Shown: positions 715-25,554 of the stretch, in pieces
Layout of the letters: each line of letters begins with the position of its first letter
Position numbering within the stretch: the stretch's first letter is position 1
From: Candidatus Thorarchaeota archaeon
GTDB lineage: Archaea; Asgardarchaeota; Thorarchaeia; Thorarchaeales; Thorarchaeaceae
Direction: 5' to 3'
DNA: 56,702 bases
Assembly (NCBI GenBank): GCA_048882485.1
Contig: JBHLRP010000020.1
Location: 1-56,702, forward strand
Translations under genes and position numbers: made by a program
Notes under the pieces: model-generated
Told to the model about the DNA's origin: nothing
What the model saw: the letters and a program-made list of their open reading frames with translations, nothing else
The model's database searches: none

Positions 715-1211
715 TCAGATCTTCATCATTTCTGTAAATCGTAATCCATTCATCTTCAGGAATAACTTCCTTGAGATACGCGATTTTGATTTCGTCTTGT
801 AGTCAACAACTGAGGCGATGACCTTTGAGAGTTCCAGAATCCGTATCGTTTCGAACTTCTTGAGTTTTCTCTTGATAAGCATCCTAGTATTAGAGTCCCT
901 CCAAGAAACCAGCCCGCAAACAGCAGGCGTCCCCCTCTTCTTACGGATGTAGAAGATACTGTCGTTGTTTTCTATGCTCTTTGTGAGCAACTTTCTTTCG
1001 ATTCTCTGTTGTTTTTTATCTTATGATTTCTCCAGCCCTTGTCAAGGAAACAGTTCACCGAAGCAGACACCACTAGAGAATGCCATCTTCGATTCAAACA
1101 TTCAATCAGGGATTCTTTCAGGTCTGATTCCTTCCAGGTGACTTGCTCATCCATGGCCCTCACTTTGCGCAGCATTTCCTTTGCATGAATAAAAATGACT
1201 GTTCCGGTCAC
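715..1211 (-). pseudogene. Two short overlapping ORFs (972..1211, 715..990), possibly one frameshifted or degraded gene
   Basis: Consecutive overlapping minus-strand ORFs inside the argF-bracketed island; no family recognised. Confidence 0.25.
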
Positions 1212-1304
1212 CTGCCTAATTGAGCTCAGACCGAGGCTTGATGCTACATAGGCAAATGAAGAAGTGGAAAATGATTAAATTCCCTCCGATTTCATACATC
1301 CATT

Positions 1305-4251: not shown

Positions 4252-5223
4252 TTGGTGCGAGAAATTGTTGCCGTGGGCAGAATCAATGTGGACGTGATTA
4301 TGGAAGTCGGCAGGATTCCAGCAAAGAATGAGCATGTCACAAGCAGACAAGGTTTCATATCTTTTGGCGGTTCGGCATCAAACTTTGCTGCCCAAGCAGC
4401 TAGACTCGGTGTGGGTACAGGGATAGTCGGTTGCATTGGTGATGACCTCTATGGGCAACAGGCCTTGAAAGACCTATCAAATGCTGGTGTGGACACTAGT
4501 TCAGTTCTAGTCTTGGACAACCAGCCAACTGGCATATTCTTTCTAGCGGAGCAGAAGAATGGGGACAGAGTTGTTGTTTCAGAACCAGGCGCAAATCGAT
4601 TTCTAGAGAAACATGTTCTCGATGAAGACCTTCTGATAAAATCTACAGTTGTGCATCTCGCTGGTGCATTTCCAATGTTGACATCTAGAATCCAAGAGGT
4701 GTCCACAGCGAATGGAATGATATTTTCCTTTGATCCGGGAAGGGCCGCGGGCTCTTTAGACTTCAAATCAATCCTTCGGAGAACCGATCTTCTGTTTCTA
4801 AACCAAGGAGAGCTACGCAACTACTTCAAGATCAACCCGAACGAGAAGGCATTGAAAGCGTTTGCCAAGACAATACCGGGAATTGTGATAGTCAAGAAGG
4901 GAGAGAAAGGCGCGGTTGCTACTGATGGGTTTGAGTACTGCACGTCCCCGGTTTTCGATGTCCCTGCGGTTGACACATTGGGAGCTGGAGATGCTTTTGC
5001 AGCTGGCTTTGTCACTGCCTGGACGCGCTCAGAGAGGATTGAACAAGCGCTTCATGTCGCTAATGCGGTTGCGGCTCTGACAATTACCAAGAAGGGTGCT
5101 CAAAACGGACAGCCCACAATGGATGAAACAGCTAGGCTTCTGAAGAAGAACAGAGTAGCAATCGACTCAGTATTGAGAACCTTCAAGCCCAAGAAACGAA
5201 GAAAGGGAAAGGGTAGGCGATAG
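4252..5223 (+). CDS. PfkB/ribokinase-family carbohydrate kinase
   Basis: GGSASN and DTLGAGDAFAAG PfkB signatures. Confidence 0.92.
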   Translation: MVREIVAVGRINVDVIMEVGRIPAKNEHVTSRQGFISFGGSASNFAAQAARLGVGTGIVGCIGDDLYGQQALKDLSNAGVDTSSVLVLDNQPTGIFFLAEQKNGDRVVVSEPGANRFLEKHVLDEDLLIKSTVVHLAGAFPMLTSRIQEVSTANGMIFSFDPGRAAGSLDFKSILRRTDLLFLNQGELRNYFKINPNEKALKAFAKTIPGIVIVKKGEKGAVATDGFEYCTSPVFDVPAVDTLGAGDAFAAGFVTAWTRSERIEQALHVANAVAALTITKKGAQNGQPTMDETARLLKKNRVAIDSVLRTFKPKKRRKGKGRR

Positions 5224-12998: not shown

Positions 12999-13047
12999 TC
13001 TCGCCCAACCAATTCTCTTTTAAGAATATGAAAATGTGAAACAGTTA

Positions 13048-13156
13048 GGGCCCGTTGCCTAGTCTGGTTTCAGTGAGCTTTTCGCCTCTGAAAGGCACAT
13101 AGGGCGCTAGCCTTCTAAGTTAGAGGTCGACGGTTCAAATCCGTCCGGGCCCGCCA
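13048..13156 (+). tRNA. tRNA-Arg(TCT) with a 31-nt D-loop intron (13068..13098)
   Basis: GGGCCCG/CGGGCCC acceptor, CTAGC-CTTCTAA-GTTAG anticodon arm, TTCAAAT T-loop, CCA; perfect bulge-helix-bulge. Confidence 0.95.
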
Positions 13157-19470: not shown

Positions 19471-20238
19471 ATGGCTCATCCAAGAGTAATGCGCGATTCT
19501 GAGGGGCGAGTTCCTCATGTATACCTGAAAGAAGGTGATGTTGCGGAATATGTCTTGCTGCCTGGCCCTCCAGAGAGAGCAAGAGCGACAGCCTCAATGT
19601 TTGACAGTTCCAAAGAATTGGGATTCCATAGGGAATACCTCAGCTTCACCGGAGAGTATCAGGGTATTGAGGTCTCAGTTGTGTCCACGGGGATGGGAGT
19701 GTTCTCAGCAGTTGTAGCAGTTGAAGAACTCGCCGCCATTGGAGCTAATACCTTCATTAGAATTGGATCATGTGCCACGTATCAGGAGCAGATTCAACTC
19801 GGGGATAACATCATAGCTACCGGTTGTATCAGAGACGAGGGGTGTACGTTGGAATATGCACCATTGGCGTTTCCGGCAATACCTGACCTGACTGTGATGA
19901 CAGCGCTCATAGATTCAGCCAAGGAAGTCGAGGCTACTTATCATACGGGAGTTGTGCGAACCTGTGAGAACTTTTACTTGCGCGACCGGTCACCAGCCCT
20001 CAATGCACAATATGCGAAACTGGGTGCCGTTGCTCTTGATATGGAACTCTCTGCTATATTGATGGCTTCGATTGATTTGGGAAAAAGAGCTGGTGGCATT
20101 CTCACTGTGGGATCCAACATGGTAACGACTGAGAACCGGTATAAGGGTGACCGAATAGCTGAGTTTGACGCCGGCGAGAAGAATATGATAAGAATCGCGC
20201 TCGAAGCTGTGAAGAGATTGCACTTGCAGGATAGCTAG
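19471..20238 (+). CDS. Nucleoside phosphorylase (uridine phosphorylase-like, PNP_UDP_1)
   Basis: LLPGPPERA, STGMG, FIRIGSC, DMEL. Confidence 0.9.
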   Translation: MAHPRVMRDSEGRVPHVYLKEGDVAEYVLLPGPPERARATASMFDSSKELGFHREYLSFTGEYQGIEVSVVSTGMGVFSAVVAVEELAAIGANTFIRIGSCATYQEQIQLGDNIIATGCIRDEGCTLEYAPLAFPAIPDLTVMTALIDSAKEVEATYHTGVVRTCENFYLRDRSPALNAQYAKLGAVALDMELSAILMASIDLGKRAGGILTVGSNMVTTENRYKGDRIAEFDAGEKNMIRIALEAVKRLHLQDS

Positions 20239-20311
20239 CCGCTTTCTAGGGAGCCATGTCCGACAGCTTTAAGTGATTTGCAACTTCAGACACGAATAAT
20301 CCCTCATCTCT

Positions 20312-20399
20312 GCGGAGGTTGCCAAGCCTGGCCAAAGGCGCTAGGTTGAGGGCCTAGTTCAGTAGTGATTCGCGAGTTCAAATCTCGCCCTCCGCACCA
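20312..20399 (+). tRNA. tRNA-Leu(GAG)
   Basis: GCGGAGG/CCTCCGC acceptor, CTAGG-TTGAGGG-CCTAG, long variable arm, encoded CCA. Confidence 0.96.
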
Positions 20400-20417
20400 C
20401 TTTGCTATTCGATCAAT

Positions 20418-20816
20418 TCAGCCGTATACTGTATAATAGTGGGTTAATTCAATGTGGGTTACTTCATCCATTCTTGCTAAGCTGAATATCTGGTCTGCTG
20501 TACGAAATGACTGAAAACTTGGAGAATACGGAGAAATGTCTCCTACAAACTCTTCGCCAATTGTATCGATGACTGCATGCATGTCGTCCCTCGTTTTGCA
20601 TGTTACTGTACAATCATATGGATAGTTTCTCCATCCAGCCTCTATGCTCTCTATCAGAAACGCTTCCAACTTGTCTCTTACGTCGTCTGGAACGGACACT
20701 CTGGGATTAAATCCGGTAAGTCCCAAGTATATGAACGAAAAGGGCACTATTGAAAGCAATAATAATGCAACAACTAGCTCCCTCCTATCTCTATTCACTC
20801 GCCGTACCCCACACAC
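20418..20816 (-). CDS. Hypothetical N-terminally membrane-anchored protein (cassette 1)
   Basis: Hydrophobic helix then soluble domain; fills the space between tRNA 3' repeats 1 and 2. Confidence 0.65.
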   Translation of the reverse strand: MCGVRRVNRDRRELVVALLLLSIVPFSFIYLGLTGFNPRVSVPDDVRDKLEAFLIESIEAGWRNYPYDCTVTCKTRDDMHAVIDTIGEEFVGDISPYSPSFQSFRTADQIFSLARMDEVTHIELTHYYTVYG

Positions 20817-20875
20817 ACAATATTGGTCCGAGGGCTTATCATTTTTACCTCAATATTCGTTTGAGCTATGAAGAC

Positions 20876-20898
20876 TCAAATCTCGCCCTCCGCACCAC
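20876..20898 (+). repeat. Direct repeat of the tRNA-Leu 3' end (att-like copy 2)
   Basis: TCAAATCTCGCCCTCCGCACCAC identical to 20378..20400. Confidence 0.95.
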
Positions 20899-20929
20899 CT
20901 TCTTCTTGATTCATTGAAATAGATTATTA

Positions 20930-21157
20930 CTATTCTTTGTCATCAATTCCAGGTAGACGACCCCCATAAAACCTGCCCATGCCCATGCCTTTAACCGCTC
21001 CCAAGTTTGAAGCTTGTGGTGCCGTATCTGAATACCTCGCTTGTGCAGAAGGAACACTAGTTTGCGAAGACTTGTTCCTTCTATCTTCTGGATGAAGCAA
21101 GAGAATGAGTGCGATAATGACTACACCAGCGATAAGCCCAGTAAACCACAGATTCAA
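20930..21157 (-). CDS. Small single-TM hypothetical protein (cassette 2)
   Basis: N-terminal TM LWFTGLIAGVVIIALILLL; lies between repeats 2 and 3. Confidence 0.6.
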   Translation of the reverse strand: MNLWFTGLIAGVVIIALILLLHPEDRRNKSSQTSVPSAQARYSDTAPQASNLGAVKGMGMGRFYGGRLPGIDDKE

Positions 21158-21220
21158 CTCAGTTAGCTTCCGTATTGATTTTGGTTTGAGTTGAGATAAA
21201 CATTACCACGAACGAGATAT

Positions 21221-21247
21221 TTCAAATCTCGCCCTCCGCACCACTTT
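21221..21247 (+). repeat. Direct repeat of the tRNA-Leu 3' end (att-like copy 3)
   Basis: TTCAAATCTCGCCCTCCGCACCACTTT identical to 20377..20403. Confidence 0.95.
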
Positions 21248-21322
21248 TCCTGTTCTCTTTGAGGACTAGCTATCTTCTTATTATCGGAGTCAAACCGGAG
21301 TGTGTTTGACGGGTGACTTCAT

Positions 21323-21826
21323 TTGAATGAAGGGAATCACAAATTCAATGACAAACTTGTAATGACATATGCTCAATACTTCAAGGCAATGACAAGCCGG
21401 GCTGTGAGCATAATCAGGGCATTTGAATCCGCCTTTGGAAGGGAAGATGTCCATCGAGTTCTCAAGGATTGGTCAGAGAACGCGGCGCGTAAAATGGCCC
21501 CGGACTCAATAGCTGATTTTCAGAAGTTCAAAAACTACTGGAAGACTACATTAGAGTCTGAGAATTGGTCAAAGATTCTGACATGCGAGTTTCTTGAAGA
21601 GTCCAATAAGAAGCTGGCGTGCAAGTATTACGAATGCCTATGGGCGGAAACAATGAAGGATATGAATACTGAAGATATTGGTTACATTCTATTTTGCCAC
21701 CCAGATTTTGAAATGGTAAAAGCAATACATCCGAATCTAAGATTGGAGCGATCTCGTACGCTTATGGAAGGGGATGAATTCTGCGATCACACATTCTATT
21801 GGGATGAGAAACCAACACCTGATTAG
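21323..21826 (+). CDS. L-2-amino-thiazoline-4-carboxylate hydrolase-like (ATC hydrolase/V4R-like) protein
   Basis: ECLWAE...CHPD...RTLMEGDEFCDH. Confidence 0.8.
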   Translation: MNEGNHKFNDKLVMTYAQYFKAMTSRAVSIIRAFESAFGREDVHRVLKDWSENAARKMAPDSIADFQKFKNYWKTTLESENWSKILTCEFLEESNKKLACKYYECLWAETMKDMNTEDIGYILFCHPDFEMVKAIHPNLRLERSRTLMEGDEFCDHTFYWDEKPTPD

Positions 21827-21878
21827 TGGCTGTGTGCTTCTATTGCACCCTGCGAACCATCTGCATCTAGGTGAGTTT

Positions 21879-22418
21879 TTACCTCACAAGCAGGATTGCG
21901 TATCTATTCATTGTCTGATCATAGTCAGATAGGACTTCTATCGGATAACCTACAGCCCTCGCAGTTGAAAAGACATCCACACCCATTGCTTCTGGTGGAG
22001 GTCTGGAGAGCCTCTTCTGCTTGCAGTCTTCTCTAGCACTGACACATTCATCGCACAATGAGCAGTTGTCTGCAGGGAGAATGAAAGCCTTGACTTCTCC
22101 AGAAAGAAACACCTCTCGCTCTAGCTTGAGAAGCTTCAGGTTTATTTCCTTCATTATTTCATGACGATCATCAGGATTGTCAAGTTCTATAGATAGGTGA
22201 AACAAAGCAATGTCATTATATTCGTCAAATAGCTCCCTGCACTCGGATACTGATGGCGTGTTAGGAGGGCATGCAGCGCATTGCCCATAGCTGGAGCATC
22301 CCCATGTGCATTTCATACGCACCCATTGGGAAACAACGACTTCCTTGGGATCAATCCATTTGTAGTCATCGAATCCATGTTTCATAAACAGAGTTTCAAG
22401 ATCTTTCAGACTGCTCAT
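21879..22418 (-). CDS. DUF2284-like Cys-rich metal-binding protein
   Basis: VRMKCTWGCSSYGQCAACPP, CSLCDEC, RPPPEAMGVDV. Confidence 0.85.
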   Translation of the reverse strand: MSSLKDLETLFMKHGFDDYKWIDPKEVVVSQWVRMKCTWGCSSYGQCAACPPNTPSVSECRELFDEYNDIALFHLSIELDNPDDRHEIMKEINLKLLKLEREVFLSGEVKAFILPADNCSLCDECVSAREDCKQKRLSRPPPEAMGVDVFSTARAVGYPIEVLSDYDQTMNRYAILLVR

Positions 22419-22543
22419 AGTCTATCATCTTTATGCAAATATTAGCTTGTTTTTAGATTTGCCTCTGAACGTAATCTTCGCTTTCTAGATTCCATGGGAC
22501 TTTTCAGAAGGAATAGTCTGGTAGCAGACAAGAGGCTGATACA

Positions 22544-22864
22544 ATGAGTCTGCATGATCAATTCAAAGAAGAGATGCGGGAGGTCTGCACTGAATATCAC
22601 AACTTGCTCCGACAAAAAGAGGCTCTTGAAGCCCAACTAGAGACGCTTCATGATTACATAGAAGCCACTATGAAGAAATACAGGCAGAATGAATACGATG
22701 AACCAGAAGTGCCTGTGAAGGTTGACAGAATCGAGTATATGACCGAGCGTATGAAGAGAGGTGGCAAGAAGAAGCTCAGGGAGATTCTGACAGAGAAGCA
22801 GTGGTCCGAAATTTATACAGAGAAGAAGGTTGTGAGCTATCGAATAACTCAGCGTGAAGAATGA
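22544..22864 (+). CDS. Hypothetical coiled-coil protein, possibly phage Gam/Gp157-like
   Basis: 106-aa ORF with SD GAGGCTGA; heptad helix then beta-rich tail. Confidence 0.65.
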   Translation: MSLHDQFKEEMREVCTEYHNLLRQKEALEAQLETLHDYIEATMKKYRQNEYDEPEVPVKVDRIEYMTERMKRGGKKKLREILTEKQWSEIYTEKKVVSYRITQREE

Positions 22865-23075
22865 GCCCCTTGTTTTGGACCCACCCACCACGGGGAGGCA
22901 AACCGCATGTTCAGGGTGGGTCCTTTGAGGGAGTTGTCGTCAGGAGCGTGATAGGGGGTTCCGAAGACAAAGGAACTCTCGCGCTTGGCGGGTCCGGATT
23001 GTCAAGGTGGGGAGCAAGAGAGGGCATAGGGACTCGGACTTTTAGAGAGGGCCAAGGGAACCCCCAGAGAGTCTT
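22865..23075 (+). ncRNA. Candidate structured G-rich RNA element
   Basis: Perfect 10-bp stem 22877..22886/22914..22923; long G-U-containing hairpin 22938..22990; stem 22992..23039. Confidence 0.4.
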
Positions 23076-23272
23076 GCACACTACTTACAATCATGAATCC
23101 TGTTGTGGAGATATAAGGCTGTAATGTGACTTGGTGACATTCAAGAATATGATAATTGCGAAAAATTCGTCAAAATGAAGTGGTTTTGAACGAGTAGCAC
23201 ATTCCACAGGGAAGAGGAATCTATAAAGGAGAACCAGTTTTTGATGAAATCAAACAGCAGGAGTGGTCAGCC

Positions 23273-24277
23273 ACGACAAATCCAAAGATAGGAATCATTG
23301 GTACAGGCAACATGGGAAGGATTCATGCCCGGGTTCTGAGTAACATTCGAGCTCTCACAGCCGTGGCTGATACCGATGTGAAGCAGGCTGAAGAAGTGGC
23401 CCAGATGTATAACGTAGAATCGTTTAACGACTTTGAGTCATTGATTGAGCACGCGGAGTTAGATGGCGTAATCATTTCCACTCCAACTGCAACACATGCC
23501 GAAATAGCTGAGAGTGTTGCCAAGAAACAGGATGGAATAAGGGGCATTCTGATTGAGAAACCGTTGGCGAGCAACCTCAAGGATGCCCGCAAGCTTGCTG
23601 AAGTCTTAAGGAAGAAGGATATCACTGTCCTAGTTGGACACTCTGAGATTTACAACCCTGTAGTTGAACGGGCATTAAACCTGATCAAAGAAGGCGCCAT
23701 TGGAGTCCCTCAGACGGTGATCCATGATAGGCGCGGATTTGTCCAGGCAGAAAGATTGTCATCTCTAGGAGACGTGTTTGAAGATATTGGGGTTCATGAT
23801 TTTGACATCATGACTCGGATAAGCAGTGGTAACGCCACTCTCTATGCTCAATGCCAGACCAAGAATGAGATTCTGAACACGGGAAATGTGACGGTGAAGT
23901 TTGAAAACGAGGCGCAACACATCTTCCATTTGTCAAGGCAATATGTGGGCAGGAAAAGGAGCATGGATGTTTCTGGAACAAAAGGAACCTTGAACCTTGA
24001 CCTCTTTGGACAGGTCATTAAGGTTCAAGACCTCGATCAAGCGCCTCTGGCTGACAGCAGGACGATTCAGCTAATAGAACGTGGTGCTACAATCAAAGTG
24101 TATGGAGAACCTATTCTACAGGTGATAACTGACTTCCTACACTGCATAGAAACAGGTAGCTCACCTAAGGTTGATTTGGATGATGGGATTTTAGCCCTCG
24201 AAGTGGTTGAAGCAGCGAGAAGGAGTGCAATCTCAGGGAAGGTTGTTAATATCAATATTCAGTCTCGACACATCTGA
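23273..24277 (+). CDS. Gfo/Idh/MocA-family oxidoreductase (probable ACG start)
   Basis: KIGIIGTGNMG Rossmann motif begins upstream of ATG 23312; EKP and DIGVHD motifs. Confidence 0.88.
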   Translation, partial: TTNPKIGIIGTGNMGRIHARVLSNIRALTAVADTDVKQAEEVAQMYNVESFNDFESLIEHAELDGVIISTPTATHAEIAESVAKKQDGIRGILIEKPLASNLKDARKLAEVLRKKDITVLVGHSEIYNPVVERALNLIKEGAIGVPQTVIHDRRGFVQAERLSSLGDVFEDIGVHDFDIMTRISSGNATLYAQCQTKNEILNTGNVTVKFENEAQHIFHLSRQYVGRKRSMDVSGTKGTLNLDLFGQVIKVQDLDQAPLADSRTIQLIERGATIKVYGEPILQVITDFLHCIETGSSPKVDLDDGILALEVVEAARRSAISGKVVNINIQSRHI

Positions 24278-25554
24278 GCGAAGAGATGAGTTCGCTCAGA
24301 AGATGTGATTTCAACATTGATAGTACTGCCCAGAGTGACTTCTTCAAGCAGTATTATTGGCTTATAGGCGAAGTTTCTACAGACGATGCCACCTCTAGGA
24401 CCGGCTTCCGTCGCAATCACCTCTCCAGTCCAACCAACCCAGGAAGCATTTAGATCAGTCACAGAATCCGATACAATGGAACTCAATTTCCGGCTTCTTT
24501 CCTTCTTGACTAAAGTATCAACTTTGTTGTTAGCTCTTGAAGCCGCCGTGCCAGGACGGTCACCATACTTTGAGATGTTTACCACCTCGGGACGCATCCG
24601 CCGCAACAGATCGATGGTATCTTCAAAATCGGAGGCCGTTTCTCCCGGAAATCCTACAATGATGTCAGTCGCAATTGTGGCTCTGGGTATTCCTCCTCTG
24701 ACTTTTGAAACGATTTCAGTCCATTCAGCAACTGTGTATTTTCGTCCCATCGCAGTGAGTAAACCATCACTTCCAGTTTGGAGAGGTACATGAAAGAATT
24801 TGAAGAAATGTTCTGATTCCATTACGGAGATTAGGTCATCTATTGTATCAAGGACTAGGTTAGGATTGAACATTCCCAGTCTGAATCTATGGTTTCCATC
24901 AATCTGATCTAAGTTCCTGAGAAGCCCAACAAGAGTTTCTCCAGTGTCATGTCCAAAAACTCCCGCATCCTGGGATGTCAGACGAATCTCTCCATAACCG
25001 ACATGTACGCATCTCTCTACTACGTTATGAATCTCAGAAATACTATAGCTACGCACGTTTCTTCTGGCGAATCGTACAGCACAATAGGCACAGCTTCCAA
25101 GGCATCCTTCACAGATTGGTATCGTGCAAATCACACTGTCCGGGGGCTCCTCAAAGAATCTTAATTTTGATTCAGAGTCAGAGTCAAGATGGACAATTCC
25201 CCTCTCTCCCTTTAGAACCCGATTGACGACATTTCCAAGTGTGTCCAGCGACTGAGGGCCTAGAAGCGCTGCAAAAGACGGGATTGCTCGTTGGATTCGG
25301 TCTATGGAGATTCGAGGCAGACATCCTGCTACTATAACTGGTACAGGCTGGTTTCCGAGCTCTTCGAGGCGATGAATAATTCTGTCCTCTGTAGGTTCCT
25401 TTACACCGCATGTATTGAGAACGATGAGATCCGCCACCTCAATATCAGATGTCTGCTCTGCTCCTAGCCCGCCAAGACGACTCACTATCAAATCCGAATC
25501 TGCTTTGTTTAGTGAACAACCATATGTTTCCAAGTAAAAGGTAGTATCGTCCAA
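24259..25554 (-). CDS. mtaB: tRNA t6A37 methylthiotransferase (archaeal e-MtaB/CDKAL1 type)
   Basis: ETYGCSLN, NTCGVK, GCLGSCAYC, TDIIVGFPGET, TRAM domain. Confidence 0.9.
   Translation of the reverse strand: MDDTTFYLETYGCSLNKADSDLIVSRLGGLGAEQTSDIEVADLIVLNTCGVKEPTEDRIIHRLEELGNQPVPVIVAGCLPRISIDRIQRAIPSFAALLGPQSLDTLGNVVNRVLKGERGIVHLDSDSESKLRFFEEPPDSVICTIPICEGCLGSCAYCAVRFARRNVRSYSISEIHNVVERCVHVGYGEIRLTSQDAGVFGHDTGETLVGLLRNLDQIDGNHRFRLGMFNPNLVLDTIDDLISVMESEHFFKFFHVPLQTGSDGLLTAMGRKYTVAEWTEIVSKVRGGIPRATIATDIIVGFPGETASDFEDTIDLLRRMRPEVVNISKYGDRPGTAASRANNKVDTLVKKERSRKLSSIVSDSVTDLNASWVGWTGEVIATEAGPRGGIVCRNFAYKPIILLEEVTLGSTINVEITSSERTHLFAQMCRD

What the first reader, a model, noticed from the sequence alone, without database searches (positions are those of the whole stretch)
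20312..21247. tRNA-Leu-anchored array of tiny single-gene cassettes with no integrase (integron-like)
Seen: the tRNA-Leu(GAG) 3' end, from the T-loop through CCA, occurs three times as exact direct repeats (20378..20400; 20876..20898, 23 bp; 21221..21247, 27 bp). The repeat units are only 498 and 346 bp. Each unit holds exactly one small membrane-anchored ORF, both antisense to the tRNA and each with a TATA-like box upstream. Local inverted symmetry lies at the junctions (TTTGAG..CTCAAA; CGAGAT-7-ATCTCG). Known: tyrosine integrases target the T-loop of tRNAs and duplicate the 3' end, but such islands are usually kb-sized and carry the integrase. Inference: these are minimal cassettes stacked by an integrase acting in trans, making a tRNA-based cassette-acquisition system for surface/membrane genes.
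Basis: partly seen in the sequence, partly recalled or inferred. Interest (0 to 1): 0.85.

Follow-up and report, generated by a model that had tools for sequence, protein, structure and literature searches.

The report
One-gene cassettes stacked behind tRNA-Leu
Behind a leucine tRNA gene of an uncultured Asgard (Thorarchaeota) archaeon lies a row of tiny one-gene DNA modules, each closed by a spare copy of the tRNA's last 22 bases; relatives gain, lose and relocate these modules exactly at those copies, and no recombination enzyme was found, so the site collects genes much as an integron does, by machinery still unknown.

Summary
The last 22 nt of tRNA-Leu(GAG) (T-loop to CCA) occur three times exactly, at 20378, 20876 and 21222, where chance predicts none. 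They bound units of 498 and 346 bp, each with one small N-terminally hydrophobic ORF antisense to the tRNA.

The array is longer than reported. A decayed fourth copy (21822-21859) follows an ATC-hydrolase-like gene, and DUF2284 and a 106-aa gene also behave as units, up to a shared right border near 22870.

Same-genus genomes carry different subsets, with breakpoints at the copies. Unit 2 sits at tRNA-Leu(TAG) in another species. Every homologue found of the unit-1 gene (across genera, 35-40% identity) lies in a 475-498-bp unit at tRNA-Leu GAG, CAG or TAG. Two metagenome strains 99.96% identical differ by a unit exactly at the copy.

Of 62 att(Leu) units, 47 are 850 bp or less. No integrase appears in 80 such loci. 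This assembly has no tyrosine or serine recombinase, Cas1 or reverse transcriptase hit.

Best reading: discrete integrase-less cassettes recombining at the tRNA 3' end, with the enzyme supplied in trans or unknown. Recombination on short homology is the main rival.

The scan noted the same layout at other tRNAs of this genome and in other Thorarchaeota.

The parts
19471..20238 (+). Conserved left flank: purine/uridine nucleoside phosphorylase-family gene (PNP_UDP_1)
   Evidence: Pfam E 4.6e-28. Collinear at 79-94% identity in all same-genus relatives.
20312..20399 (+). tRNA-Leu(GAG), the anchor of the array; CCA is encoded in the gene
   Evidence: ARAGORN; Rfam RF00005, 48.4 bits.
20377..20403 (+). 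att copy 1: T-loop to CCA of the tRNA plus 4 nt
   Evidence: the repeat finder family D1; exact 22-mer.
20418..20816 (-). Cassette 1 gene (unit 20400-20897, 498 bp): membrane-anchored protein of 126-132 aa with a subtilisin-propeptide-like alpha/beta domain
   Evidence: ORF. No Pfam hit. Eight-sequence family alignment. Model pLDDT 82, helix 3-28 followed by a beta-alpha-beta-beta-alpha-beta domain. Best PDB hits are weak (E 3e-3) and are subtilisin propeptides. Absent from sister species G005, with the break exactly at the repeat.
20875..20901 (+). att copy 2 (22/22 core)
20930..21157 (-). Cassette 2 gene (unit 20898-21243, 346 bp): 75-aa protein with one N-terminal hydrophobic segment
   Evidence: ORF. 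The frame is open at the same length in G005 (92% aa) and G015 (77% aa). dN/dS is about 0.4 against G015. Homology to G015:C31 runs exactly from att to att.
21221..21247 (+). att copy 3 (22/22 core; 27/27 with copy 1)
21323..21826 (+). Cassette 3 gene: ATC_hydrolase-like protein (167 aa), sense to the tRNA
   Evidence: Pfam PF14196, E 8e-20. Present in G005 and G002. Missing between cassette 2 and DUF2284 in metagenome contigs L126 and L130.
21822..21859 (+). att copy 4: decayed copy of about 40 nt of the tRNA-Leu(GAG) 3' part
   Evidence: 15/24 match to the core. It aligns with the tRNA from the variable arm to CCA and is better preserved in G002. The G002 and G009 breakpoints fall here.
21879..22418 (-). 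Cassette 4 gene: DUF2284 metal-binding protein (179 aa)
   Evidence: Pfam E 1e-45. It directly follows the tRNA in G009 and G015. It is absent in G002 and G011. In L146 it is bounded by att copies of 21/22 and 18/22.
22544..22864 (+). Cassette 5 gene: 106-aa charged, coiled-coil-like protein
   Evidence: It directly follows the tRNA att in G012, follows a degenerate att in G007, and is absent in G002, G011 and G009.
22867..22894 (+). Right border of the variable region, with a possible fossil of the original tRNA 3' end (…CCCACCCACCA)
   Evidence: Homology to G002, G011 and G009 resumes at 22867-22873. The resemblance to att is weak (11/23, read by eye), so this is inference only.

Best explanation
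The finding is the tRNA-proximal part of a tRNA-Leu(GAG)-anchored array of at least five one-gene cassettes.

Each cassette is a discrete module: cargo gene, short flanks and one copy of the tRNA's T-loop-to-CCA segment (att, 22-27 bp, sometimes about 40 bp). None carries a recombinase of its own.

Cassettes enter and leave by recombination within att. Integration into the tRNA regenerates the tRNA and pushes the previous att copy downstream. Recombination between two att copies deletes a cassette or frees it as a circle. Because tRNA-Leu GAG, TAG and CAG share this 3' end, a cassette can settle at any of them. Distal copies decay and their genes become fixed.

Shown: the modular structure, breakpoints at att, gain/loss differences between near-identical strains, relocation between tRNA-Leu loci, long-term linkage of a gene family with att(Leu), and the absence of any recognisable recombinase.

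Inferred: that the reaction is site-specific and catalysed in trans by an enzyme not yet recognisable, host-borne or on an unbinned element. Circular intermediates are also inferred.
For: - Exact repeats far beyond chance.
- Same-genus loci carry different subsets, with breaks at att. G005 lacks unit 1. G002 has an S9 peptidase unit and then ATC hydrolase. G011 has a thioesterase unit. G009 and G015 go straight to DUF2284. G012 goes straight to the 106-aa gene.
- Unit 2 lies at the tRNA-Leu(TAG) locus in G015. The upstream flank there is 85.7% identical to this genome's contig C51, and homology to the window runs att to att.
- Every unit-1 gene homologue found, including a pseudogene on contig C6 of this genome, lies in a 475-498-bp att(Leu)-bounded unit, antisense, at tRNA-Leu GAG, CAG or TAG. 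This holds in at least two genera, at 35-40% identity to the window protein.
- Near-identical strains differ by whole units exactly at att. L104 and L148 are 99.96% identical over 2.5 kb. L132 and L171 are 99.8% identical and then drop to 82% across an att.
- 45 of 80 metagenome loci hold 2 or more scored copies (17 of 22 matches or better; a few of the weaker ones are neighbouring tRNAs of similar sequence). 47 of 62 units are 850 bp or less. Recurrent cargo families mostly keep their unit size and orientation.
- Several copies differ from their own tRNA only at the A/G site that distinguishes tRNA-Leu variants, for example L160 and L073. This fits exchange between att variants.
- No integrase hit in the 80 loci or in this genome with a profile built from 26 Asgard integrase domains.
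- No hit in this genome to PF00589, PF16795, PF00239, PF01867 or PF00078.
- The layout recurs at 9 or more other tRNAs of this genome.
Against: - No enzyme, helper element or attP-bearing virus was found. The IMG/VR scan for att(Leu) gave 0 hits.
- The integrases present in related genomes are not next to tRNAs.
- Orphan copies have no conserved left arm or dyad, and the left edge of tRNA identity varies from T-loop only to about 40 nt. This is unusual for a single site-specific recombinase.
- tRNA-Leu genes with an intron exactly at the left edge of att carry arrays as often as intron-less ones (4/7 against 20/49). An intact T-arm in the DNA is therefore apparently not required.
- G000 alone has unit 1 and alone among its nearest kin lacks that intron. 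One homologous replacement of the tRNA 3' part explains this more simply.
- The decay of copies with distance from the tRNA is only a trend (rho -0.23, p 0.12).
- The assembly is 90.5% complete in 157 contigs, so an enzyme could lie in unassembled or unbinned DNA.
Confidence: 0.55

Rival explanations
1. There is no dedicated recombinase. The host's homologous recombination moves units between genomes and loci, after DNA transfer between relatives and by loop-out or slippage. It uses the perfectly conserved tRNA (up to 88 bp) as left homology and a 22-27-bp att copy as right homology. Deletions arise by att x att recombination.
For: - No recombinase of any standard class was found.
- The left edges of tRNA identity vary.
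- Arrays lie behind tRNAs with a T-loop intron as often as behind intron-less ones.
- G000 gained unit 1 and lost the T-loop intron relative to its sister G005, as a single replacement of the tRNA 3' part would produce.
- L132 against L171 shows mosaic identity: 99.8% up to an att and 82% beyond it.
- The relative order unit 1, unit 2, ATC hydrolase, DUF2284, 106-aa gene is kept wherever these units co-occur.
Against: - It does not explain how a new gene first acquires a flanking att copy.
- It does not explain why units are so uniformly one gene long.
- It does not explain why a gene family stays inside a 475-498-bp att-bounded unit while diverging to 35-40% identity and moving among three tRNA-Leu genes.
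- 22 bp is very short for a crossover. Whether this lineage can use it is unknown.
Confidence: 0.25
2. The units are deletion remnants of ordinary kilobase-sized, integrase-bearing integrative elements or proviruses that inserted one after another at the tRNA, as in tycheposon islands and archaeal integrated elements.
For: Partial tRNA repeats are the classical scar of such elements (established knowledge; bioRxiv 10.1101/2020.12.28.424599, read). A few larger units of 1.8-4.6 kb with OLD-family nucleases or unknown ORFs exist in metagenome arrays. Tyrosine recombinases occur sporadically in the family: 4 of 16 other genomes of the genus, 9 of 24 of the family.
Against: - No integrase or fragment of one in 80 att(Leu) loci or in this genome.
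- Unit sizes cluster tightly around one small gene: 47 of 62 are 850 bp or less.
- The same unit boundaries are conserved across genera.
- Strains 99.96% identical differ by a whole small unit.
- Random decay would not give such regular modules.
Confidence: 0.07
3. A homing-type endonuclease cuts the tRNA gene. Repair then copies in a module that brings a replacement tRNA end and pushes the old end downstream, as with fungal mitochondrial mobile ORFs and yeast WHO elements. Earlier notes of this scan proposed this for other Thorarchaeota arrays.
For: The pushed-down ends and the polarity towards the gene resemble that mechanism. The earlier notes are leads only.
Against: No endonuclease domain turned up among the array ORFs scanned at this locus, in relatives or in metagenome arrays. 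The only hint was one weak NERD/PDDEXK match, E about 1e-3, in one large unit. The copies next to the tRNA are exact rather than cleavage-resistant variants. Movement among three different tRNA-Leu loci is not allelic homing. The LAGLIDADG, HNH and GIY-YIG families were not searched genome-wide.
Confidence: 0.08
4. The repeats are target-site duplications made by a transposase or casposase that cuts the tRNA 3' end with a long stagger.
For: By recollection, not checked in a paper here, casposons insert at tRNA 3' ends and duplicate the target.
Against: No Cas1 in the genome. No terminal inverted repeats or conserved unit ends. The 22-40 bp of duplicated sequence is longer than the roughly 14-15 bp I recall for casposons, and its length varies. 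Some copies differ from their tRNA at the A/G variant site.
Confidence: 0.03

Closest known systems
Additive flexible genomic islands at tRNA genes (e.g. 'Ca. Actinomarinales' fGI1, PMC7771536; Prochlorococcus tycheposon islands, bioRxiv 10.1101/2020.12.28.424599)
   Same: A tRNA gene serves as the docking site. [quoted passage not shown] Newer insertions push older ones outward. Content differs between close relatives, and cassettes are shared across genera (for the papers; here).
   Different: Here most units are a single small gene (346-850 bp). They recur as fixed modules. No integrase-carrying element was seen at this att in 80 loci, whereas tycheposons carry a tyrosine or large serine recombinase and a replication module. 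The host is an Asgard archaeon.
CIMEs (cis-mobilizable elements) and tandem accretion at one att site (reviewed in PMC5704250; that paper came up in search but was not read here)
   Same: att-flanked DNA without its own integrase, stacked in tandem at the 3' end of a conserved gene, and thought to be moved by an enzyme supplied in trans.
   Different: As I recall the definition (not read here), CIMEs are defined relative to a co-resident ICE or IME with the cognate integrase. No such helper was found here or in relatives. CIMEs are also, by recollection, kilobases long, not one-gene units.
Integrons (IntI, attI, attC cassettes), including those reported from archaeal MAGs (preprint 10.1101/2022.02.06.479319, named in an earlier scan note; not read here)
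   Same: An ordered array of mostly single-ORF cassettes, each closed by a recombination site. The array is anchored at one fixed site, and cassette content varies between relatives.
   Different: No IntI. The sites are copies of a tRNA 3' end, not structured attC palindromes. Cassettes lie in both orientations, with about 60 nt upstream of each ORF inside the unit (read). The anchor is a functional tRNA gene, and many tRNAs serve as anchors in one genome.
Archaeal and bacterial integrative elements that target tRNA T-loop/3' ends with tyrosine integrases (the sublocation classes of tRNA integration sites, recalled from Williams 2002, not checked here; the SNJ2 integrase family, PMC5861418, listed, not read)
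   Same: The identity block runs from the T-loop to the 3' end of the tRNA, and the tRNA is regenerated after insertion.
   Different: No integrase, no kilobase-scale element, and arrays persist behind tRNAs whose T-arm is interrupted by an intron.

Membership tests
Integron | Integron integrase (IntI-type tyrosine recombinase) next to the array | tested here: not met
   No PF00589 or PF16795 hit in the whole assembly. No hit with a custom Asgard integrase profile in this genome or in 80 att(Leu) loci.
Integron | Cassettes end in attC sites (imperfect palindromes of variable sequence that fold) | tested here: not met
   The sites are sequence-conserved copies of the tRNA 3' end. The profile of 55 orphan copies shows no conserved or symmetric left arm.
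Integron | Array of mostly single-ORF mobile cassettes whose content varies between relatives | tested here: met
tRNA-targeting integrative element / genomic island (Islander-type definition) | Direct repeat of the tRNA 3' part at the far end of the inserted DNA | tested here: met
tRNA-targeting integrative element / genomic island (Islander-type definition) | An integrase gene inside the island | tested here: not met
   Pfam scans of all ORFs from 19471 to 22864 found no integrase. Genome-wide searches were also negative.
CIME / tandem accretion | att-flanked, integrase-less segment in tandem at the same att | tested here: met
CIME / tandem accretion | A related autonomous element with the cognate integrase at the same att in the same or related genomes | tested here: not met
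   Not found in 41 relatives; their integrases are not beside tRNAs. Not found in 80 metagenome loci. IMG/VR holds no att(Leu) match.
Tycheposon / additive flexible island | tRNA-anchored island whose cargo differs among close relatives, with partial tRNA copies between modules | tested here: met
Tycheposon / additive flexible island | Elements carry tyrosine or large serine recombinase plus replication genes | tested here: not met
   The Pfam scans run on cargo gave no recombinase, primase or polymerase.
Casposon / TSD-making transposon | Cas1 casposase or transposase, terminal inverted repeats, fixed-length target duplication | tested here: not met
   No PF01867 hit. No conserved unit ends. 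The length of duplicated tRNA sequence varies.
Homing-endonuclease tail-replacement element (mORF / WHO-like) | Endonuclease gene in or at the head of the array | tested here: inconclusive
   None among the ORFs scanned with Pfam. The LAGLIDADG, HNH and GIY-YIG families were not searched across the genome.
Excision as circles (any site-specific cassette system) | Circle junctions and empty-site reads within one population | not testable with these tools
No circular contigs among the 80 loci. Filled and unfilled alleles do exist between contigs that are 99.96% identical.

The most novel reading that the evidence does not exclude
Thorarchaeota have a lineage-wide gene-capture system that works like an integron but is built differently. 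Most tRNA genes serve as docking sites, and single-gene cassettes carry a copy of the tRNA's 3' end as their only mobility signal. They are moved by a recombination activity that belongs to none of the known tyrosine, serine, Cas1, DDE or reverse-transcriptase classes, or by an unusually short-homology host pathway. The junction coincides with the place where tRNA-Leu genes of this lineage carry a T-loop intron, so tRNA intron dynamics and cassette traffic may be linked.
Probability: 0.3. Interest if true: 0.9.

Novelty: new variant of a known kind. Interest (0 to 1): 0.74.

Why it matters
[quoted passage not shown] This locus, with its counterparts at other tRNAs, shows accessory genes being added, dropped and moved one at a time at tRNA genes, in a genome where none of the standard recombinases searched for was found.

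If the driver is a new enzyme, it is a new class of site-specific recombination machinery. If it is host recombination on 22 bp of tRNA homology, tRNA genes act as universal, cross-genus landing pads for gene exchange.

Either way the system is easy to test. The units are 350-600 bp with exact ends, and near-identical natural strains already differ by single units.

Tried and rejected
- **Recombinase searches in this genome.** PF00589, PF16795, PF00239, PF01867 and PF00078 gave no hits. tblastn with five same-genus integrases gave nothing below E 0.006. A custom HMM built from 26 Asgard integrase domains gave nothing at E <= 1.
- **Integrases in relatives.** None lies beside a tRNA. One apparent 'tRNA-Ser' next to an integrase is an ARAGORN false positive inside the integrase ORF.
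- **Viral contigs** with att(Leu): none.
- **Circular contigs** among the 80 loci: none.
- **Large unknown ORFs** in big units, compared with PDB sequences: nothing useful.
- **tRNA-primed cDNA idea** (units as reverse-transcribed mRNAs). Rejected: no reverse transcriptase, 20 of 50 small units are sense-oriented, and units include about 60 nt upstream of the ORF.
- **'T-loop intron protects the tRNA from insertion'.** Not supported: 4/7 against 20/49.
- **Decay gradient of copies with rank.** Significant only at a loose threshold that admits chance hits. At a strict threshold it is only a trend.
- **ATC-hydrolase-like genes** in the Leu and Gly arrays are only 19% identical, so they give no evidence of a recent switch of att.
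- **The GC-rich stretch after the array** has no Rfam hit and no fold signal.
Full report
**1. The observation**

ARAGORN places tRNA-Leu(GAG) at 20312-20399 on the + strand. Rfam confirms it at 48.4 bits.

The last 22 nt of the gene, TCAAATCTCGCCCTCCGCACCA (T-loop, 3' strand of the T-stem, 3' strand of the acceptor stem, discriminator, CCA), recur exactly at 20876-20897 and 21222-21243. No match turned up in 100 dinucleotide-preserving shuffles, even with three mismatches allowed. Copies 1 and 3 agree over 27 nt, and the spacings are 498 and 346 bp.

Each interval has one main ORF on the minus strand:
- 20418-20816: 132 aa from GTG. Homologues suggest the start is at 20798.
- 20930-21157: 75 aa from TTG.

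Both open with a hydrophobic segment.

**2. The array is longer than the finding**

A fourth, decayed copy lies at 21822-21859, right after the ATC-hydrolase-like gene (21323-21826). It aligns with about 40 nt of this particular tRNA, from the variable arm to CCA, and is better preserved in relative G002.

Comparison with same-genus genomes shows that everything from the tRNA to about 22870 is variable. Left and right flanks are collinear at 79-96% identity.

| Genome or contig | Content after the tRNA |
|---|---|
| G000 (this window) | unit 1, unit 2, ATC hydrolase, DUF2284, 106-aa gene |
| G005 (sister species) | the same, without unit 1; homology resumes exactly at 20876 |
| G002 | an S9-peptidase unit, att, ATC hydrolase, then the right flank |
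| G011 | one acyl-CoA thioesterase gene, then the right flank |
| G009 and G015 | DUF2284 directly after the tRNA |
| G012 | the 106-aa gene directly after the tRNA |
| G007 | a 632-aa gene, a degenerate att, then the 106-aa gene |
| L126 and L130 (metagenome contigs) | unit 2 followed directly by DUF2284 |
| L146 (metagenome contig) | DUF2284 between att copies of 21/22 and 18/22 |

So ATC hydrolase, DUF2284 and the 106-aa gene are older units of the same array whose att copies have decayed.

**3. The units are discrete, mobile modules**

(a) *Unit 2 sits at a different tRNA-Leu gene in another species.* In G015 it occurs with the same 346-bp spacing and 85% identity as the second unit behind tRNA-Leu(TAG). 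The upstream flank there is orthologous to contig C51 of this genome (85.7% over 1.1 kb). Similarity to the window runs exactly from att to att. The 75-aa frame is intact in all three species, with dN/dS about 0.4 against G015.

(b) *The unit-1 gene family stays inside an att(Leu)-bounded unit.* Every homologue found lies antisense in a unit of 475-498 bp bounded on both sides by att(Leu) copies, behind tRNA-Leu GAG, CAG or TAG. These are a pseudogene on contig C6 of this genome, the copies in G051, G088 and G089, two in Thorarchaeota MAG E44_bin77, and the copies on contigs L112 and L144. They come from at least two genera and are only 35-40% identical to the window protein. A gene that keeps the same unit boundaries while diverging that far, and while sitting at three different tRNA genes, is travelling as a module.

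(c) *One cassette is shared across genera.* The thioesterase unit is 81% identical in protein between genus g1 (G011) and genus g5 (G088). Both copies are at tRNA-Leu(GAG), but at different ranks in the array.

(d) *Near-identical strains differ by whole units.* Contigs L104 and L148 are 99.96% identical over 2.5 kb, starting at the att. To the left of that att, L104 has the tRNA body and L148 has another unit. L132 and L171 are 99.8% identical up to an att. Beyond it L132 lacks a 735-bp unit that L171 has, and identity between the two drops to 82%. L171 has two extra tRNA-proximal units relative to L134.

(e) *The A/G marker.* Some copies differ from their own tRNA only at the A/G position that distinguishes tRNA-Leu variants (L160, L073). 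This is expected if units move between att variants.

**4. How general it is**

A metagenome scan for att(Leu) returned 80 loci, and 45 of them hold two or more scored copies. That count uses a threshold of 17 of 22 matches, and a few of the weaker copies are neighbouring tRNAs of similar sequence.
- The 62 units between copies are mostly small: 47 are 850 bp or less.
- Recurrent families (CxxCxxCC, PrcB_C, GNAT, the propeptide-like protein) mostly keep their unit size and orientation.
- Among distinct tRNA-Leu loci with enough downstream sequence, 24 of 56 have at least one downstream copy.

In this genome the same layout occurs at tRNA-Gly(CCC), Ala, His, Phe, Arg, Asp, a Val-like tRNA and others, with units of 0.3-3 kb holding one to four ordinary genes.

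Earlier notes of this scan describe the same thing at tRNA-Tyr, Lys and Gly(GCC) of this genome and in other Thorarchaeota. I treated these as leads. The G005 and G002 notes were checked here.

**5. What moves them**

No classical enzyme was found.
- This assembly (90.5% complete, 157 contigs) gives no hit to PF00589, PF16795, PF00239, PF01867 or PF00078.
- tblastn with five same-genus integrases and a profile of 26 Asgard integrase domains also find nothing, either here or in the 80 metagenome loci.
- Only 4 of the 16 other genomes of the genus have any tyrosine recombinase, and none is next to a tRNA.
- IMG/VR holds no att(Leu).
- Cargo is ordinary: hydrolases, acetyltransferases, small membrane proteins and some defence-like OLD nucleases.

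Features that fit a site-specific reaction:
- the constant right part of the identity block;
- the usual left edge at the T-loop;
- the strict one-gene modularity;
- the long-term linkage of gene families with one att.

Features that fit recombination on short homology instead:
- orphan copies have no conserved left arm;
- the left edge varies, from T-loop only to about 40 nt;
- tRNA-Leu genes with an intron inserted exactly at the left edge of att carry arrays as often as intron-less ones;
- G000 both gained unit 1 and lacks that intron relative to its sister G005 and to G002 and G011, which a single replacement of the tRNA's 3' part would give.

I therefore commit to 'integrase-less cassettes recombining at the tRNA 3' end', which is shown. 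I prefer an unidentified trans-acting site-specific activity, which is inferred, at roughly twice the odds of homology-only exchange. Remnants of large islands, homing endonucleases and target-site duplication are minor rivals.

**6. The cargo of the two units**

The unit-1 protein has a membrane helix followed by a beta-alpha-beta-beta-alpha-beta domain (model pLDDT 82). Its best structural matches are subtilisin propeptides, but they are weak (E 3e-3). It may be a membrane-tethered propeptide-like or inhibitor-like domain.

The unit-2 protein is a 75-aa single-pass protein with a conserved tail and no known family.

**7. Comparison with known systems**

The closest known systems are additive flexible islands at tRNA genes and tycheposon islands, then CIMEs and tandem accretion, then integrons.

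This array shares the docking logic of the first, the lack of an integrase of the second, and the single-ORF array architecture of the third. It fails a defining test of each: it has no integrase-bearing element, no helper element and no IntI or attC (see the membership table).

I found no paper in the held library that describes such arrays in Thorarchaeota.

**8. Verdict**

The feature is real and dynamic. It is a new variant of tRNA-anchored island building: integron-like in form, with an unknown engine.

Noticed in passing
L027:2294-2325 (G005), also G002 (L028), G011 (L029) and several metagenome loci (e.g. L102, L122, L140, L167): tRNA-Leu genes of many Thorarchaeota carry a conserved hairpin-forming insertion of about 32 nt (a likely non-canonical intron) exactly between the 5' strand of the T-stem and the T-loop. 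That is the left edge of the repeated att segment. G000 lacks it although its sister G005 has it.
   Followed up: partly
window 13047-13156 (+): A likely intron-containing tRNA (anticodon loop reads CTTCTAA, so possibly Arg-TCT) that ARAGORN missed. Its T-loop-to-CCA end showed up in the motif scan.
   Followed up: partly
G000 contig C51:23423-23611 and contig C50 near 24040-24370: Contig C51 ends 101 bp after tRNA-Leu(TAG). In G015 the orthologous site carries two units, and its far flank matches the end of C50. The assembly probably breaks at another, possibly heterogeneous, cassette array.
   Followed up: partly
G000 contig C6:89580-90191 (L066:1417-2028): A pseudogenised paralogue of the unit-1 gene (35% identity, two stops) sits in a 495-bp unit behind tRNA-Leu(CAG), closed by a decayed att (17/22). 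ARAGORN mislabels this intron-bearing tRNA as Pro(CGG).
   Followed up: yes
whole assembly G000: No hit to tyrosine recombinase (so no XerA-type enzyme either), serine recombinase, Cas1 or RVT_1 reverse transcriptase in a 3.96-Mb assembly that is 90.5% complete. Tyrosine recombinases are sporadic across the family.
   Followed up: yes
window 22868-23130: A G+C-rich stretch (about 55%) just past the array, conserved in relatives. It has no Rfam match and folds no better than shuffles (z -0.47). The 87-aa ORF over it looks unlike a protein. Its nature is unknown.
   Followed up: partly
window 20224-20260 versus L027:1880-2158: Relatives G005, G002, G011 and G009 have about 280-295 bp between the phosphorylase gene and the tRNA that the window lacks.
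   Followed up: no
G000 contig C103 (L008): tRNA-Gly(CCC) 1175-1281 (-), copies at 4877 and 5482 (+): Copies of the tRNA-Gly(CCC) 3' end lie in the opposite orientation to the tRNA on the same contig. This suggests an inversion between att copies, or a misassembly.
   Followed up: no
L150:4425-6104 and L154:6356-8026 (metagenome contigs): The few large att(Leu) units carry OLD-family ATPase/TOPRIM nucleases, so defence-type cargo also rides in these arrays.
   Followed up: partly
L010:1497-1949 (G000 contig C63, unit behind tRNA-Phe): The single gene in the 606-bp unit behind tRNA-Phe is a Staygreen-family protein (Pfam E 1e-45), a family I know mainly from plant chlorophyll breakdown.
   Followed up: no
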